Shown here piece by piece: positions 28,354 to 34,300 of a DNA stretch of 64,000 bases (within the stretch, counting starts at the first letter, position 1; each line of letters starts with the position of its first letter). Source of the stretch: Escherichia coli (GTDB lineage: Bacteria; Pseudomonadota; Gammaproteobacteria; Enterobacterales; Enterobacteriaceae). Location: the NCBI RefSeq assembly GCF_016903815.1, contig NZ_CP069973.1; one strand, written 5' to 3'. A program made the position numbers.

Positions 28354-31300
28354 AAGGGGTAAGCTGAAATCGTTTATGGATTACATCGACATATGCCTGG
28401 CAGAGAATGTCCGGAATGACGAGGTTATCTTTGCGGAGATTAAGGCAATGGTATACGGGCCGACGTTCCATGCCGCGTTACTACATTCAGCCCGGACGTA
28501 AAATGCGCCCGTCAAAAAGAACGGTTCGCTTCGAAACTCAGCCAGGATACCACCTCTCCGCCACACCCGGGAAGAAGTTGATATGGTGGTTGCCGGACAA
28601 CAGCGCTCCTGGATTGACTGCTGCATCACTCAACCACGCTGAATATCAAAGGAGAGCGTTACCGGTTAAAAGAGAAACGTAAAGCTGTGGTGATGACCCA
28701 AAACGCAACGCCTGTCAGTGAGGATGAAATGGTGAAAAGCGGACAGCATCAGTAACGGAAGTATCTTAGCGGGTACGAAAATGGCAGGATCGTGACATTG
28801 ACAGAATATCTCCTGATCATCCTGAATGACTGCAGTTGCTGTAGAAAAGTAAGCTGTCTCCACCCACGGCACCACTTAACAGGCATTCCGTAACTTCCCC
28901 CAGACTTACTATGACGCATTATCGGTGCACTGAAAACGGGAGAGTGCGCTTAAAACCGCAGACCGCATGCGGGTGTTACTGCATGACAGTCTGGCCGTAT
29001 TGTGAGATGTCGGCAGGAACCGATGTCCGCGCAGGGGGGAACTTCCTGCAGTACCTGACGCTTCAAATGGTATTAACCGTAGGGTGTTGTTGGTTCCGGA
29101 TCGCGGAAATGGGAGCACAGGTCTGCTACGGGGTGTACCTCTGACAGTATATCCGGCTCGCTCATCTGACAGCCTCTCTCCCGGAAAAGACCAAAAATGA
29201 GATCGTCTCCTCAACAGCAGAGAAGAGGTCTTGACAGACAGGCTACATTGCATACGATTTATGAAGAAAAAGACAGCAAATATGGAGGTTATAGCGGAGA
29301 ATACCCTACGAAATTCCTATGAAAAACGATTGAAAAAAATATCAAATTCGATTCGTTTTTATATGCTTTTTGGGAGCGTGGCGATGACGAACTGTTGCAT
29401 GTGCAGAGGAGAATGCACCCGGAAGCACCAGAATCATCCAGAAAGGCAGAACGATTACGCATCAAACCAGGAGACAGCAATATCAAGGTAATATACTGAT
29501 TTAAAATGAATTTACAGCAATACGTAAAAACATTTTTTACTTAAAGGAGACAGATGCGCTGAAGAGAGTGCAGGTATTTTTATATAAAAATGAGAAGTTT
29601 ACGGGATGTATATCCGGCACACTATGACCGGAGAATATCAGTCAAGCTTAAAAAGACAATAAATACAGTGAGTTAAATACACAGAGAAAACGTAGTATCA
29701 GAGGGTACATCTTACAACAGAGACTGAATTTCCGGTTTTTCATAACCGGCGCATTCCGGAAAGTGCAGGCGGCCCGGAGGTTTTCTGACGCCACTACCTG
29801 GTAGATTGTTCTGTACATCATGTACGGAGGTTTTTGTTTGCTTTTTTAAAATCTGCAAATGTGAGAAAAGCAGGTGAGGTGTATTGTGGGAAAGGAACTG
29901 GATGATATCTGCACCAGCTGTCCGTATATCGATGCTGTAAAACGGCACAAACAACAGCTCGGTGCCATAGAGGAATATACACAGTGGTTAAAAAAAGAAC
30001 CACGGGCATCTTATTTTTTTCTGTTCCAGCTGTATACCCGCATTCACAATACATTTTTCTCCCAAAAGCAACAACTCCCGTTCACTCCCGGTGGCACTCA
30101 CTGCCCGGAACCTGATGTCACCCTTCGGGACTTAACGCTTTCCCCTGGCTACCACAGTGATTATGCCCCTCAACCCATTCCGGAGATGGACAGTTCTGCT
30201 GTTGTTCCCCCAACTAATGAAAACACCTCGCCTCCGGAAGATACTCCCGACAACACTCCGGCCGGAGGCAATACCGGACAAGCGGAAAAGACCAGAAACG
30301 CAGGACTCACACCCATTCCTGAAAAACGTTCAGGAATGCCCCCGGAACATCTGCGGTTTGCCACGGGGTTTCCATCGCAACCGAAGATTGCCGGTCCCAG
30401 AGAAAAGCCGATGCGCACCGTGCATCCGGATAAAATCTACCGTGAAATTATATGGTTCTGCTCCAGTTACCTGCTGAAATCCGGACCAGAGGCTACGAGG
30501 ACGATTATCAACTCAGTATTCTCTGAATGGGCCAGCATAAACAATGATTACCCCTCCCCCTTTTCGTGGGTGGACAGCAGGGACAGTGAACAGTGTGACT
30601 GGTTATGGAACGCCATGCAGGTCCGGTGTGTGGGAACCCCGCTGAATCCCCTTACCCCGGAGCAGAAATACTGGTTTGCCTGCGCCACGTTTGATAACTG
30701 GGAGGGCTGGAATGAGCAACAGGTACAGTTTTTACTGGAAAGTAATCCCAGACGGAACAGAGCGAAGTTTACGCAGGTCTCCTTCCAGGCCCCCAGGATT
30801 CAGCATAAAGCGATTCTTCTTGATGAGCTGAAAAGTGCCCGGGAGCAACAAAAAAGGCGTGATGAACGTGCTGATGGTTCCGTCCCTCTGAAACTGTCCG
30901 GAAAAATCCACAAACAGCTTGAAAGTATTGCCCGAAGTCGTGGTGTCCTCCCAAAAAAACTGCTGAATGAAATGATTGAGCAGGCGTACCATGATTTGGT
31001 GGCAACCAGGCAGAACAGCCAAATCGATTCCAGATAATTTCAGACAGATATTATTTCCGTGAATCCCCCGCCACCTTTCCGGTGCGCGGGGTTTTGTCTT
31101 TTTTCACCGGGAATACATGTATGAATCCGTCTGATGCCATTGAGGCAATTGAAAAACCGCTCTCCTCCCTGCCTTACTCACTTTCCCGTCACATCCTGGA
31201 ACATCTGCGCAAACTCACCAGTCACGAACCCGTGCCTGGCATTATGGGTAAAAGCGGGGCCGGTAAATCCTCACTCTGTAATGCGCTGTTTCAGGGGGAG

Positions 31301-34300
31301 GTCACCCCGGTCAGTGATGTTCACGCCGGCACCCGGGAAGTGCAGCGCTTCCGTCTGAATGGCCATGGTCACAGCATGGTTATCACTGACCTGCCCGGGG
31401 TGGGCGAGAGCCGGGACAGGGATGCAGAGTATGAAGCCCTGTACCGTGACATTCTGCTCGAACTGGACCTGGTACTGTGGCTGATTAAAGCCGATGACCG
31501 TGCCCTGTCTGTGGATGAGTATTTCTGGCGACACATCCTGCACCGGGGACATCAGCGGGTACTGTTTGTGGTGATGCAGGCCGATAAAACGGAGCCCTGC
31601 CATGAATGGGATATGGCCGGTATTCAGCCTTCTCCCGCAGAGGCACAGAACATTCGCGAAAAAACGGAGGCGGTATTCCGTCTGTTCCGGCCCGTACATC
31701 GGGTTGTTGCCGTATCGGCCCGCACCGGCTGGGAACTGGATACGCTGGTCAGTGCGCTCATGACAGCACTTCCCGACCATGCCGCCAGTCCCCTGATGAC
31801 CCGCCTGCAGGACGAGCTGCGCACGGAGTCTGTCCGGTCTCAGGCCCGTGAACAGTTTACCGGTGCGGTGGACCGGATATTTGACACGGCGGAGAGCGTC
31901 TGCATTGCCTCTGTTGCACGCACGGTTCTGCGCGCCGTCCGTGACTCGGTGGTCTCTGTTGCCCGCGCGGTATGGAACTGGATTTTCTTCTGAACCCGGT
32001 GGTGATGTACCAGGCTGTTGTTACAGATTTTTAACTCCATGAAAACACTATGCAAACGCAGCCATACCCGGGTTGTCCCCTTGCGTTGTGTTTCTCAAGT
32101 TAATAGAATACATCGATCGTTACTATCATATCGATCGTTATAAACGATCGTTTGTAGTAAATGACCTCCTCCTTGGTTGTCATGAAAATGCGTCTTAGGA
32201 AGGTTAAATAATGCACGAAAAGAACATCGCCCTGCTTTGTGATGAAGCCGACCGACTTTTGCAACTGAACATTAATCTGCTCCGGCAAATGGTTGAGGAG
32301 CCAGATGTGTTATCTGACAGTAAGAACGAAAACAGACTGCTTTTTGATAAACAGAAAGCACTGAAAAGAATTGAGGAGCTGGAGGGCGAACAAATCAAAA
32401 CCGCCCGCAGGGAGATGGTGCTGGCTGTTGTCGGCACGATGAAAGCAGGCAAATCAACCACCATCAACGCCATTGTGGGGCAGGAAATTCTGCCTAACCG
32501 TAACCGCCCCATGACCTCTGTACCGACGCTCATCCGCCACGTTCCCGGAAAAACTGAGCCGGTTCTCCATCTGGAACATATTCAGCCTGTCCGCAATTTA
32601 TTAATCACACTGCAGGAAAAACTCGCCACCCCGGCAGGACAGCAGGTCGCACAGACCCTGCAGCAAACCGGGGATACCCGCGAACTGCTGGATATTCTGA
32701 CGGATGATGGCTGGCTCAAAAATGAATACCACGGGGAGGAGGAAATCTTTACCGGACTGGCATCGTTAAACGATCTGGTTCGTCTTGCTGCGGCAATGGG
32801 GACTGAATTTCCTTTTGATGAATACGCCGAAGTGCAGAAACTGCCGGTGATCGACGTGGAATTCAGCCATCTGGTGGGGATGGATGCATGCCAGGGAACA
32901 CTCACACTGCTGGATACCCCCGGCCCTAATGAGGCCGGACAACCGCAGATGGAAGTGATGATGCGGGATCAACTGCAGAAAGCCTCTGCGGTTCTGGCTG
33001 TGATGGATTACACCCAGATGAACTCAAAAGCGGATGAAGACGTCCGTAAAGAGCTTAATGCCATTGCTGACGTATCAGCCGGCCGCCTGTTTGTACTGGT
33101 CAATAAATTTGATGAGAAAGACCGCAATGGCGATGGGGCAGATGCCGTACGCCAGAAAGTTCCGGCAATGCTGAACAGCGATGTGCTGCCCGCCTCCCGT
33201 GTTTATCCCGGATCCTCACGCCAGGCATACCTGGCTAACCGTGCGCTTCATGAGTTACGGAAAAACGGAACCCTTCCTGTTGATGAAGCCTGGGTCGATG
33301 ATTTTATCAGAGGTGCCTTCGGTTGCATGAAAAAAGAATACGTCTGTAAAGACAGTGAACTGGCAACTGAAGGGGCGACAGACCTGTGGGAAGGCTCACT
33401 TATCGATCAACTGATAACGGAAGTCATACAGAGCTCACATTCCAGAGCTGCGGCACTGGCGGTTGACTCTGCCGCCGCAAAACTGATGCAGAATGCAGAA
33501 AATATCAGTGAATACCTGTTGTTACGCCATCAGGGGCTACAGCAAAGCATTCAGTCACTGCAGTCGCATATCACCAGCCTGCTTGCGGATATCCGGGAAA
33601 TCGCGGACTGTCAGGAGCAGATGACCACTGATGTCAGAATGGCCATGGAGGAGATCGATACTAAAACCCGGGAATTACTGACGGGGGTCTGCACCTCACT
33701 GGAAGAGGAGCTGAATGACTATTTCAGAAGCGGTAAACGCAAAGAACAGCAAATGCTGGAGGAAGAAGACGCAGAACAACGAAGGTCTCAGTCCGGATTA
33801 TGGGGGAAAATTTCTCAATGGTCCGGTATCAACAACCAGGGCCGGGAGGATTACAGGAAACGAGATTTTGCCCCGGACAGCCCCGAAATAAAATTCAGTG
33901 ATCGCAGGGAAGCCCTTGAACTGATGACGCAAATCGAATCGACCGTGACCAGCCTGCACCGTGAGGCTGAAGCACAGTTCCGGCCTGAGCTGGAGAAAAT
34001 CGTCAGCGGGATTGAAACAGGTTTTCGTGGCACGGCCCTGTACGCCACAGAAAACATTGCCGGTCGCATCAATGCCCGCCTGGAGGATGAGGGCTTTACC
34101 GTAAAAATCAGTTTTCCGGCAGTCAGCCAGTTACAGACCCGGCTCGCGGTAAAAATAAATCTGAGTGCGCTTATGGAGGAAAGAACGGAGACCGTCACCC
34201 GTCGCCGTCGGCAGAGTGGCGTATGGGGAACCGTTTGTCGATGGTTTGGCACCAGTGACCTGGGCTGGGAAAACTATGACGAGGATGTGAGTCGCAGCGT

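What the first reader, a model, noticed from the sequence alone, without database searches (positions are those of the whole stretch)
31121..31993. Full-length YeeP/YfjP-family GTPase directly upstream of the dynamin-like operon
This family member appears intact here (G1/G3/G4 present, ~290 aa), whereas as far as I recall the K-12 CP4-44 copy (yeeP) is a pseudogene. It sits on the same strand ~200 bp upstream of the dynamin-like GTPase, so two unrelated GTPases lie in tandem; co-regulation or co-function is possible but unproven.
Basis: partly seen in the sequence, partly recalled or inferred. Interest (0 to 1): 0.4.

Follow-up and report, generated by a model that had tools for sequence, protein, structure and literature searches.

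The report
Island GTPase beside a phase-switch operon
The gene is a real, full-length copy of a common E. coli genomic-island GTPase (the version that is broken in K-12), but it sits next to the dynamin-like operon only because that operon occupies the island's cargo slot, where it has its own promoter that looks like the on/off (phase-variation) switch of the antigen 43 gene.

Summary
Window 31121-31993 (+) is an uninterrupted 290-aa YeeP/YfjP/YkfA-family GTPase, identical to RefSeq WP_001069815.1. The island sits at the K-12 CP4-44 site, so this gene is the positional orthologue of K-12 yeeP, which is a 426-bp 5'-truncated pseudogene.

"Intact" needs a qualifier. This allele carries substitutions at strongly conserved family positions: I39P, P113L, T152M (first residue of G4) and Q174E.

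The co-function idea is not supported.
- The family is a backbone gene of CP4-type islands and lies next to different cargo: Ag43 in K-12, small secreted proteins in Citrobacter, nothing in CP4-57 or CP4-6.
- Orthologues upstream of the same intact dynamin operon are deleted or frameshifted in other strains.
- The 217-bp gap holds no terminator, but it does hold a homologue of the agn43 promoter and Dam/OxyR switch. It has -35 TTGCGT, a 17-nt spacer and -10 TAGAAT, plus three GATC sites inside an OxyR site that matches 16/20 consensus positions.

The dynamin/RdcB-like/patatin operon, present in 1985 of 5426 complete E. coli genomes, is therefore probably transcribed independently and phase-variably. 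I found no paper describing this. The GTPase itself is ordinary; the switch is the interesting part.

The parts
31040..31054 (+). Conserved promoter box of the GTPase gene: TCAGACAGATATTA (31040-31053), with a -10-like TATTAT at 31049-31054. The -35 is degenerate in this allele (TCCAGA) where yfjP and ykfA have TTGAAA.
   Evidence: The box is invariant across yeeP, yfjP, ykfA, Serratia, Citrobacter and a member with 42% protein identity. It is found twice in the window against 0.32 expected. Shimada 2014 lists TTGAAA-15-TATCAT as an RpoD promoter for ykfA and yfjPQ.
31066..31105 (+). Leader hairpin CCCCGCCACC/GGTGcGCGGGG (31066-31091) followed by the U-run TTTTGTCTTTTTT. It looks like a terminator and lies between the promoter box and the start codon.
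   Evidence: Flagged by the terminator scan. The fold gives z = -4.26 for 31040-31125. Other family members have a hairpin plus U-run at the same place, with four unrelated stem sequences. There is no Rfam match.
31121..31993 (+). yeeP orthologue: a 290-aa YeeP/YfjP/YkfA-family GTPase (WP_001069815.1). It is full length but carries I39P, P113L, T152M (G4), Q174E and P194R.
31994..32080 (+). Spacer after the yeeP stop. It has no canonical intrinsic terminator and is not alignable to the K-12 sequence at the same position.
   Evidence: The terminator scan finds nothing here. The fold z-score is only -1.28. Alignment to K-12 is lost immediately after the stop codon.
32081..32109 (+). Promoter of the dynamin operon: -35 TTGCGT (32081-32086), a 17-nt spacer and -10 TAGAAT (32104-32109). 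The start of transcription is predicted at 32115.
   Evidence: It has the same architecture as K-12 agn43/isrC, TTGTCC-17-TAGAAT. The annotated isrC 5' end is the G of GATC-I. The distance from TAGAAT to GATC-I is identical in five loci.
32112..32149 (+). Putative Dam/OxyR phase switch. The OxyR-type site is ATCG-N7-CTAT-N7-ATCG-N7-CGAT (32112-32148). It contains GATC-I (32115-32118), GATC-II (32133-32136) and GATC-III (32146-32149).
   Evidence: The triple-GATC pattern occurs once in the window against 0.02 expected. The site matches 16/20 OxyR consensus positions, the best score in the 64-kb window, against 14/20 for K-12 agn43. The GATC sites are invariant in four divergent dynamin leaders.
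32115..32210 (+). Predicted 96-nt 5' UTR of the dynamin operon, with Shine-Dalgarno AGGAAGG about 8 nt before the ATG.
   Evidence: Sequence. The fold z-score is -3.61.
32211..34607 (+). Dynamin-like GTPase, 798 aa. It is a diverged paralogue of CrfC/YjdA/RdcA.
   Evidence: Pfam Dynamin_N 2.8e-18. NCBIfam NF007368 (CrfC) scores 556 bits, below the 1146 cut-off. RefSeq names it 'dynamin family protein'.
34604..35509 (+). YjcZ/RdcB-family protein, 301 aa. Its start overlaps the dynamin stop.
   Evidence: Pfam PF13990 4.1e-70. RefSeq names it 'diguanylate cyclase regulator RdcB family protein'.
35506..36576 (+). Patatin-like phospholipase, 356 aa. Its start overlaps the previous stop.
   Evidence: Pfam PF01734 3e-24.
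36593..36617 (+). Intrinsic terminator after the patatin gene.
   Evidence: Terminator scan; sequence.
36632..36658 (+). Second copy of the yfjP-type promoter (TTGAAA-15-TATTAC, containing the box TCAGATATATATTA). It lies ahead of two small signal-peptide protein genes (36712-37395 and 37411-37821).
   Evidence: The 136-aa protein matches phrog_8968 and is not IrmA by sequence.
38042..38863 (+). DUF932 (YfjQ/YafZ-type) gene. This is the backbone gene that directly follows the GTPase in K-12 CP4-57 and CP4-6, so it marks the far end of the cargo slot.
   Evidence: Pfam PF06067 1.5e-51. K-12 gene order. A strong terminator lies at 37963-37992.

Best explanation
Window 31121-31993 is the full-length orthologue of the K-12 pseudogene yeeP.

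**The protein.** It has an Era/EngB-type G domain. The catalytic Gln position after DxxG is a hydrophobic residue (DLPGV), so it belongs to the 'HAS-GTPase' type. Two N-terminal helices and a C-terminal amphipathic helical hairpin wrap the G domain, and the hairpin ends in a conserved aromatic tail.

**Its place in the island.** It is a backbone gene of CP4-44/CP4-57-type integrative islands. It has its own conserved promoter box and a leader hairpin that looks like a terminator. It travels with DUF932, antirestriction, RadC and CbtA/CbeA genes. I infer, but have not shown, that it acts as a nucleotide-dependent, probably membrane-associated switch serving the island itself.

**Why it sits next to the dynamin operon.** The neighbourhood is positional, not functional. 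The space between the GTPase gene and the DUF932 gene is a cargo slot. Cargo there is expressed from an agn43-type promoter overlapped by an OxyR site with three Dam (GATC) sites. In this window the cargo is a dynamin-like/RdcB-like/patatin operon.

**How the switch would work**, by analogy with agn43. OxyR bound to unmethylated GATCs blocks transcription from about 32115 (OFF). Dam methylation of the three GATCs excludes OxyR (ON). Each state is inherited through replication, which gives mixed ON and OFF populations.

**What is shown and what is inferred.** The sequence homology, motif conservation, comparative gene order and decay of yeeP next to intact operons are shown. OxyR binding, methylation dependence, switching and the biochemical role of YeeP are inferred.
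For: **Identity and location**
- The island lies between cobTSU and yeeA/sbmC, like CP4-44.
- Translated K-12 yeeP is 96% identical over the residues it shares with the window protein.

**Backbone status**
- The family matches in 4542 of 5426 E. coli genomes, with a median of two copies.
- In K-12, yfjP and ykfA are followed directly by DUF932 genes.
- In Serratia and a relative with 42% identity, the gene lies near antirestriction genes, and in Serratia also near RadC and CbtA/CbeA.

**Independent promoter and switch**
- Window/K-12 homology is lost after the yeeP stop. It resumes only over TAATAGAAT..CGATC..CTAT..TATCGATCGTT..CGATCG.
- Shimada 2014 lists TTGTCC-17-TAGAAT for isrC/flu, and the annotated isrC 5' end is GATC-I.
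- The triple-GATC pattern is unique in the window, once against 0.02 expected.
- The OxyR site matches 16/20 consensus positions, the top score in the window.
- The same switch follows a YeeP-family gene in E. albertii (dynamin operon) and in two Citrobacter species (unrelated small secreted proteins).

**Decoupling of yeeP from the operon**
- The leader plus dynamin gene is present in 1985 genomes. Only 1056 genomes have at least 80% of the yeeP-plus-junction query.
- ST131 has an in-frame 438-bp deletion in yeeP and 2013C-3181 a 28-bp frameshifting deletion. Both keep intact operons.

**Expression data compatible with an ON/OFF state**
- A five-gene cluster was the most up-regulated unit between two E. 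coli MP1 strain stocks, in all media.
- agn43-yeeR-irmA, in the same slot, is OxyR-repressed.

**Protein fold**
- The AlphaFold2 model has pLDDT 91.8.
Against: - No experiment on this locus was available. OxyR binding, methylation state and switching are untested here.
- The distance from GATC-I to GATC-II is 18 nt, against 19 nt in K-12 agn43, so GATC-I sits one base off register in the OxyR site. The effect of this is unknown.
- No intrinsic terminator separates yeeP from the switch, so read-through co-transcription remains possible.
- The MP1 RNA-seq observation has the authors' own alternative explanation (prophage crosstalk). I could not see whether a GTPase gene lies upstream in that strain, or its read counts, because no supplement is held.
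- The function of YeeP is unknown, and no paper found in the library addresses it.
- All sampled dynamin operons do have a yeeP gene or remnant upstream. The association is therefore constant in position, even if the gene is often broken.
Confidence: 0.65

Rival explanations
1. YeeP and the dynamin-like operon form one functional unit. They are co-transcribed from the yeeP promoter, and the small GTPase regulates or partners the dynamin-like machine.
For: - Both lie on the same strand with a 217-bp gap, and no terminator-like site lies between 31994 and 32100.
- Every sampled dynamin operon has a yeeP gene or remnant immediately upstream.
- The ancestral arrangement yfjP-yfjQ is listed as one operon, so transcription out of the GTPase gene is plausible.
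- YeeP has weak similarity to LeoBC and Dynamin_N profiles.
Against: - The operon has its own conserved promoter and switch.
- The same GTPase family precedes unrelated cargo or none.
- yeeP is deleted, frameshifted or truncated next to intact operons.
- Roughly half of the genomes carrying the operon lack a full-length yeeP junction.
- A five-gene, not six-gene, co-regulated cluster is reported in MP1.
- The two proteins share only P-loop similarity.
Confidence: 0.12
2. The ORF is intact only in length. This allele is a functionally impaired or dead GTPase on its way to the pseudogene state seen in K-12, ST131 and 2013C-3181. This reading is compatible with the main explanation.
For: - The substitutions on the window lineage hit conserved positions. 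Position 39 is P here, where 54 relatives have I (37) or V (17). P113L replaces a P found in 41 of 54. T152M falls at the first G4 residue, where relatives have N (35), S (13) or T (5). Q174E replaces a Q found in 52 of 54.
- The lineage-specific changes are 7 nonsynonymous to 4 synonymous.
- Sister copies are demonstrably decayed.
- The -35 of its promoter is degenerate compared with yfjP and ykfA.
Against: - There is no stop codon or frameshift.
- The 1301-bp query spanning yeeP and its junction matches at 99% identity or better in 866 records, so the allele appears widespread rather than a one-off.
- P39 also occurs in other E. coli yeeP alleles.
- The counts are too small for a significant dN/dS statement.
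- G1, G2, G3 and G5 are canonical.
Confidence: 0.3
3. The agn43-like sequence upstream of the dynamin operon is a recombination relic. The promoter may work, but expression is constitutive or otherwise regulated, with no Dam/OxyR phase variation.
For: - The GATC-I to GATC-II spacing differs by 1 nt from K-12 agn43.
- The flanks are unrelated to agn43, consistent with cargo replacement by recombination at this spot.
- No methylome or reporter data are available for this locus.
Against: - The three GATCs and the CTAT-N7-ATCG-N7-CGAT register are invariant in four divergent dynamin leaders and in E. albertii, while nearby bases vary.
- The match to the OxyR consensus is better than in the proven agn43 site, 16/20 against 14/20.
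- The strong bimodal-like difference between strain stocks in MP1, independent of medium, fits a heritable state.
Confidence: 0.2

Closest known systems
K-12 YfjP (CP4-57), YkfA (CP4-6) and the yeeP pseudogene (CP4-44): the 'YfjP family GTPase' or 'GTPase family protein'
   Same: End-to-end alignment with 49-51% identity to YkfA and YfjP, and 96% to the translated yeeP remnant. The chromosomal site is the same as CP4-44. The conserved C-terminal VVSVARAVW..FF helix, the 5' promoter box with leader hairpin and the island neighbours are all shared.
   Different: The gene is full length where K-12 yeeP is 5'-truncated. It carries I39P, P113L, T152M, Q174E and P194R. Cargo is inserted between it and the DUF932 gene, whereas yfjP-yfjQ and ykfA-yafZ are adjacent.
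agn43 (flu) Dam/OxyR phase-variation switch of E. coli K-12 (Henderson & Owen 1999; Haagmans & van der Woude 2000; Wallecha 2002)
   Same: The position immediately downstream of yeeP is the same. So are the -10 TAGAAT with a 17-nt spacer, the distance from -10 to GATC-I, the three GATC sites inside an OxyR-type site and the identical GATC-II to GATC-III spacing. The mechanism is summarised.
   Different: It drives a dynamin-like/RdcB-like/patatin operon instead of the Ag43 autotransporter. The GATC-I to GATC-II spacing is 18 nt, not 19. The leader is short (96 nt) and lacks the isrC terminator. Function is untested here.
CrfC/YjdA (RdcA) with YjcZ (RdcB), the core-genome dynamin-like GTPase pair of E. 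coli (Ozaki 2013; Pfiffer 2019, PMC6510439)
   Same: The downstream operon starts with a paralogous pair in the same order, with overlapping stop and start codons.
   Different: It scores 556 bits against the 1146-bit equivalog cut-off, and PMC12922286 reports about 30% identity. It has an added patatin-like phospholipase, is borne on an island and has a different promoter.
Era/EngB/TrmE-type TRAFAC GTPases, and the IRG, GIMAP and Toc34 GTPases
P. aeruginosa AlpA antitermination at PalpB (Pena 2021, PMC7969949)
   Same: The layout of the yeeP, yfjP and ykfA leader is similar. A conserved sequence lies between -35 and -10, and an intrinsic-terminator-like hairpin follows just downstream. The island also encodes an AlpA-family protein, at 24631-24837.
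   Different: The box sequence is unrelated to the Pseudomonas motif GGGACG-N5-GGTA. No binding or read-through data exist. A second copy of the box in the window has no hairpin after it. This is a lead only.

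Membership tests
YeeP/YfjP/YkfA GTPase family | Full-length (about 287-291 aa) collinear alignment with family members | tested here: met
   49-51% identity to YkfA and YfjP, 57-63% to Enterobacterales relatives, no internal gaps.
YeeP/YfjP/YkfA GTPase family | Family nucleotide-binding motifs: G1 GxxxxGKS, G2 T, G3 DxPG, G4 [N/S/T]QxDK and G5 VSA | tested here: inconclusive
   G1, G2, G3 and G5 are as in the family. G4 reads MQADK, with M at a position that is N, S or T in 53 of 54 relatives. I39P lies just before the P-loop.
YeeP/YfjP/YkfA GTPase family | Conserved C-terminal amphipathic helix ending in W..FF | tested here: met
   V273, R274, V277-V280, R282, W285 and F289 are invariant in the 21-sequence alignment. 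The helix is confident in the model. The hydrophobic moment was calculated.
YeeP/YfjP/YkfA GTPase family | Location in a CP4-type integrative island with DUF932, antirestriction, RadC and CbtA/CbeA genes | tested here: met
   for the window; for relatives.
Era-like TRAFAC GTPases (Pfam MMR_HSR1, PF01926) | Pfam score above the gathering threshold | tested here: met
   55.6 bits against 21.9. No NCBIfam equivalog (Era, Der, MnmE, EngB) reaches its cut-off, so it is none of those named proteins.
Dynamin-like proteins, including the Eleos LeoA/LeoBC defence system | Large GTPase with a helical stalk or paddle, and a full-length match to Dynamin_N or the LeoA/LeoBC models | tested here: not met
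IRG (p47 immunity-related) GTPases | G domain plus N- and C-terminal helical domains superposing as a whole on IIGP1/Irga6 | tested here: inconclusive
agn43-type Dam/OxyR phase-variation switch (for 32081-32149) | Sigma-70 promoter with the OxyR site starting at or just after the transcription start | tested here: met
   The architecture is TTGCGT-17-TAGAAT, with TAGAAT to GATC-I at the same distance as in K-12, where the isrC 5' end is GATC-I. The transcription start itself is inferred by homology.
agn43-type Dam/OxyR phase-variation switch (for 32081-32149) | Three GATC sites embedded in a four-element OxyR binding site | tested here: met
   a 16/20 consensus match, a unique triple GATC, and elements 2-4 identical to agn43. 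GATC-I is shifted by 1 nt.
agn43-type Dam/OxyR phase-variation switch (for 32081-32149) | Methylation-sensitive OxyR binding, and heritable ON/OFF switching that is locked OFF in dam mutants and locked ON in oxyR mutants | not testable with these tools
   There is only indirect support. The MP1 RNA-seq difference between strain stocks fits a heritable state, and agn43-yeeR-irmA in the same slot is repressed by OxyR.
CrfC/RdcA equivalog (for the downstream 798-aa protein) | NCBIfam NF007368 score above the curated cut-off | tested here: not met
   556 bits against 1146. It is a paralogue, not CrfC itself.

The most novel reading that the evidence does not exclude
CP4-44-type islands carry a reusable phase-variable expression slot directly downstream of the yeeP-family GTPase gene. 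The slot consists of an agn43-type Dam/OxyR switch that drives whatever cargo is inserted there.

In about 37% of complete E. coli genomes the cargo is a dynamin-like/RdcB-like/patatin membrane-active operon. That operon would then be expressed in only a heritable subpopulation, as a form of bet-hedging. On this reading, the 'prophage-induced' up-regulation of the operon reported for E. coli MP1 would be a clonal ON/OFF difference rather than prophage crosstalk.

A more speculative addition concerns the GTPase gene itself. It may be controlled by antitermination at its conserved promoter-box and leader-terminator arrangement, possibly through the island's AlpA-family protein.
Probability: 0.5. 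Interest if true: 0.6.

Novelty: new member of a known kind. Interest (0 to 1): 0.4.

Why it matters
The GTPase itself is ordinary. It is annotated in RefSeq, and homologous sequence is found in 4542 of 5426 complete E. coli genomes. Its function is unknown, and this allele may be impaired.

The regulatory context is what matters. A widespread dynamin-like/RdcB-like/patatin operon appears to sit behind the same epigenetic ON/OFF switch that controls antigen 43.

If that is right, three things follow.
1. Bulk expression, mutant and phage-defence experiments on this operon will be confounded by which colony was picked, as is documented for agn43.
2. A published 'prophage-induced' up-regulation may need reinterpretation.
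3. The space between yeeP and the DUF932 gene becomes a recognisable slot in which islands place costly surface- or membrane-active cargo under bet-hedging control.

All of this can be tested directly with reporter fusions, oxyR and dam mutants, and methylation-aware sequencing.

Tried and rejected
1. **Known RNA element around yeeP or in the gap.** The Rfam scan of 30800-32400 gave only a chance miRNA hit at E = 0.44.
2. **Terminator between yeeP and the operon.** The only terminator-like hit in the gap (32132-32150) is the GATC-II/III palindrome, not a terminator. The long hairpin at about 32040-32097 has z = -1.28 and no U-run.
3. **Defence-system membership.** PADLOC gives only weak LeoBC, LeoA and phospholipase-effector hits for all four proteins. 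The locus is therefore not filed as Eleos or CBASS.
5. **The window's 136-aa secreted protein as IrmA.** IrmA lies in the same slot in UPEC, but the protein has no sequence match to any PDB chain, and the Citrobacter small proteins are unrelated to it.
6. **Consensus structure of the GTPase leader by RNAalifold.** MAFFT did not register the different stems and no pairs were predicted. Single-sequence folds were used instead.
7. **The promoter box as the mark of an island regulon.** The second hit in K-12 CP4-57 is just the leader of a yfjP-like pseudogene, ypjI. The second hit in the window is a promoter copy with no hairpin after it. The evidence for a regulon or an AlpA target is therefore weak.
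8. **Literature.** No paper was found on YeeP, YfjP or YkfA function. None combines dynamin with phase variation, OxyR and GATC, or patatin with agn43, OxyR and GATC. The ST131 methylome paper and the UPEC dam paper do not mention this locus. Wallecha 2002 is not held, and no supplements are held for the MP1 paper.
9. **Genome-wide species scan for the switch.** It gave 14 hits, of which only 3 were enterobacterial. The rest are in unrelated phyla and fit chance expectation for a 19-base pattern in 298 Gb.

Full report
**1. The observation**

The ORF exists as described. It runs from ATG 31121 to the stop at 31993 on the + strand and encodes 290 aa. An upstream GTG at 31082 would give 303 aa, but that extension overlaps a conserved leader hairpin. 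All relatives begin at the MN/MK... start.

The DNA from 31000 to 32300 is 100% identical to many complete E. coli genomes. In strain 7/2, RefSeq annotates exactly this ORF as WP_001069815.1, 'GTPase family protein'. Pfam MMR_HSR1 scores 55.6 bits against a 21.9-bit cut-off. No NCBIfam equivalog (Era, Der, MnmE, EngB) reaches its cut-off.

The protein aligns end to end with K-12 YkfA (49% identity), K-12 YfjP (51%) and 291-aa relatives throughout the Enterobacterales. There is no internal truncation.

**2. Orthology with K-12 yeeP**

In strain 7/2 the island lies between cobTSU and tmaR/yeeA/sbmC. This is the site of the cryptic prophage CP4-44 in K-12. K-12 yeeP (b1999) is annotated as a 426-bp pseudogene. 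Its translation is 96% identical to the window protein over the residues they share, and DNA homology begins only at about codon 120.

**3. 'Intact' needs a qualifier**

I compared the allele with 54 relatives that share as little as 27% identity.

| Position | Window | Relatives |
|---|---|---|
| 39 (strand leading into the P-loop) | P | I in 37, V in 17 |
| 113 | L | P in 41 |
| 152 (first residue of G4) | M | N in 35, S in 13, T in 5 |
| 174 | E | Q in 52 |

Polarising changes against four other E. coli copies gives 7 nonsynonymous and 4 synonymous changes on the window lineage. These numbers are too small for a test, but they point towards relaxed constraint.

G1 (GKSGAGKS), G2 (T71), G3 (DLPG) and G5 (VSA) are canonical. 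The residue after DxxG is Val, not Gln. From established knowledge, this is the 'HAS-GTPase' condition shared with Era, EngA, MnmE, FeoB and Toc34. Those proteins rely on dimerisation or a cation for catalysis.

**4. The protein fold**

An AlphaFold2 model built on a 55-sequence alignment is confident, with mean pLDDT 91.8 and pTM 0.90. It shows two N-terminal helices, a G domain and a C-terminal helical hairpin (236-260 and 264-289). The last helix is strongly amphipathic and ends in the conserved W..FF.

No paper in the library addresses the function of YeeP, YfjP or YkfA.

**5. The gene's own control region**

Upstream of the start codon lies a conserved box, TCAGACAGATATTA (31040-31053), containing a -10-like TATTAT. 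A GC-rich hairpin (31066-31091) with a U-run follows it.

The box is invariant in yfjP, ykfA, Serratia, Citrobacter, E. albertii and a relative with 42% protein identity. The hairpin plus U-run recurs at the same place with four unrelated stem sequences. Shimada et al. 2014 list TTGAAA-15-TATCAT, the same element, as an RpoD promoter for ykfA and yfjPQ.

The GTPase gene therefore has its own promoter, and the leader looks like an attenuator. No Rfam family matches it.

**6. The gap between the two GTPase genes**

The 217-bp spacer contains no terminator-like site apart from a palindrome formed by two GATC sites. Aligned with K-12, homology stops right after the yeeP stop codon. It resumes only across about 60 bp:

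- window: TAATAGAATACATCGATCGTTA-CTATCATATCGATCGTTATAAACGATCG
- K-12: TAATAGAATAAAACGATCAATATCTATTTTATCGATCGTTTATATCGATCG

The K-12 sequence is the agn43 (flu) promoter and its Dam/OxyR phase-variation switch. The annotated isrC 5' end is the G of GATC-I. Shimada 2014 lists TTGTCC-17-TAGAAT for isrC/flu.

The window has the following features:

- -35 TTGCGT (32081-32086), a 17-nt spacer and -10 TAGAAT (32104-32109).
- GATC sites at 32115, 32133 and 32146.
- An OxyR-type site, ATCG-N7-CTAT-N7-ATCG-N7-CGAT.

The triple-GATC pattern occurs once in the 64-kb window, against 0.02 expected. The site matches the OxyR consensus at 16 of 20 positions. That is the best score anywhere in the window and is better than K-12 agn43 at 14 of 20. 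The three GATCs are invariant in four divergent leaders. The only architectural difference is an 18-nt rather than 19-nt distance from GATC-I to GATC-II.

The mechanism at agn43 is that OxyR represses, and Dam methylation of the GATCs abrogates OxyR binding. The state is heritable. This is summarised.

**7. The downstream operon**

The operon encodes three proteins with overlapping stop and start codons, followed by an intrinsic terminator at 36593-36617:

- 32211-34607: a dynamin-like protein that matches CrfC/YjdA/RdcA below the equivalog cut-off (556 bits against 1146).
- 34604-35509: a YjcZ/RdcB-family protein.
- 35506-36576: a patatin-like phospholipase.

The leader plus the dynamin gene start is present in 1985 of 5426 complete E. 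coli genomes.

**8. Positional or functional neighbourhood**

The evidence favours a positional neighbourhood.

- In K-12 CP4-57 and CP4-6 the GTPase gene is followed directly by the DUF932 gene. In CP4-44 it is followed by isrC-flu.
- In Serratia it is followed by two unrelated ORFs and then antirestriction, RadC and CbtA/CbeA genes. In a relative with 42% identity it is followed directly by an antirestriction gene.
- A scan of one genome per species found the switch after a YeeP-family gene in three further species. In E. albertii it drives the dynamin operon. In Citrobacter braakii and C. amalonaticus it drives small signal-peptide proteins unrelated to anything in the window.
- Next to intact dynamin operons, yeeP carries an in-frame 438-bp deletion in an ST131 genome and a 28-bp frameshifting deletion in 2013C-3181.
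- Only 1056 genomes hold at least 80% of the yeeP-plus-junction query, against 1985 with the leader.
- The two GTPases share only P-loop similarity.

**9. Published expression data**

A 2026 RNA-seq study of E. coli MP1 reports homologous 'dynamin, RdcB family, phospholipase' operons. One of them is part of a five-gene cluster (SID94_19700-19720). That cluster was the most strongly up-regulated unit in the lysogen stock relative to the cured stock. This held in every medium and did not track the lytic/lysogenic decision. Two colonies per stock were used.

The authors propose prophage crosstalk and phage defence and do not consider phase variation. A heritable ON/OFF state of the switch would produce the same pattern. 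This pitfall is documented for agn43. The text mentions no GTPase family protein in the cluster, but I could not inspect the figure or supplements.

In UPEC, agn43-yeeR-irmA in the same slot is one OxyR-repressed operon. In EAEC 042, flu regulatory-region reporter clones showed an ON/OFF pattern.

**10. Verdict**

Co-function is not supported. Read-through co-transcription cannot be excluded, because there is no terminator, but it is unlikely to be the main mode of expression.

The GTPase is an ordinary, already-annotated backbone gene of unknown function, and this allele may be impaired. The more interesting result lies just outside the given coordinates. A widespread dynamin-like/RdcB-like/patatin operon sits behind an agn43-type epigenetic switch, in what looks like a reusable phase-variable cargo slot. 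I found no paper describing this. Every mechanistic step beyond sequence homology is inferred.

Noticed in passing
window 36632-36658, with genes at 36712-37395 and 37411-37821: A second copy of the yfjP/ykfA-type promoter (TTGAAA-15-TATTAC, with the same TCAGATATATATTA box) lies after the patatin terminator. It precedes two small signal-peptide proteins with no Pfam family. The 136-aa protein matches phrog_8968 and is not IrmA by sequence.
   Followed up: partly
window 31040-31105; L003 14622-14700; L004 10965-11050 (-); L008 5925-5985; L019 6205-6275 (-): YeeP-family genes share a conserved arrangement of promoter box, GC-rich hairpin and U-run immediately before the start codon. The stems differ in four lineages but always pair. 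No Rfam family matches. This is a possible attenuator or antitermination target.
   Followed up: partly
window 24631-24837: The island encodes a 68-aa AlpA-family protein (PF05930, 25.2 bits against a 21-bit cut-off). AlpA of P. aeruginosa is a processive antiterminator that acts at promoters followed by a terminator, a layout like the yeeP leader.
   Followed up: partly
L003 22456-22817 (K-12 CP4-57, ypjI pseudogene): ypjI is a remnant of a second yfjP-like GTPase gene. It has the same box, hairpin and MSNSE start, so CP4-57 once carried two copies of the family.
   Followed up: partly
proteins P0026 and P0055: These are mosaic family members. P0026 has a YkfA-like N-terminal half and a YeeP-like C-terminal half, and P0055 is the reverse. 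This indicates recombination between paralogous island copies.
   Followed up: no
L010 251-2104 and L011 242-2095: A distant family member (about 35% identity) occurs as a tandem pair of paralogous GTPases of 302 and 298 aa. This hints that the family may work as dimers.
   Followed up: no
window 26462-28263 (-): An IS100 (IS21-family istA/istB) element is inserted in the island upstream of the GTPase region, flanked by gene fragments that RefSeq annotates as pseudogenes in the identical strain.
   Followed up: no
window 29886-31037 (+): A 383-aa ORF directly upstream of the yeeP leader is annotated hypothetical (WP_000514100.1). It has no hit in Pfam, NCBIfam, PADLOC or PHROGs.
   Followed up: partly
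window about 40731-41104 (L001 29732-30105): In the identical strain 7/2 sequence, the cbtA toxin gene of the island's CbtA/CbeA pair is annotated as frameshifted while cbeA is intact.
   Followed up: no
PMC12922286 (E. coli MP1, SID94_19700-19720): The reported prophage-dependent up-regulation of the dynamin/RdcB/phospholipase cluster may instead reflect a clonal ON/OFF state of the Dam/OxyR switch. The paper does not consider phase variation.
   Followed up: partly
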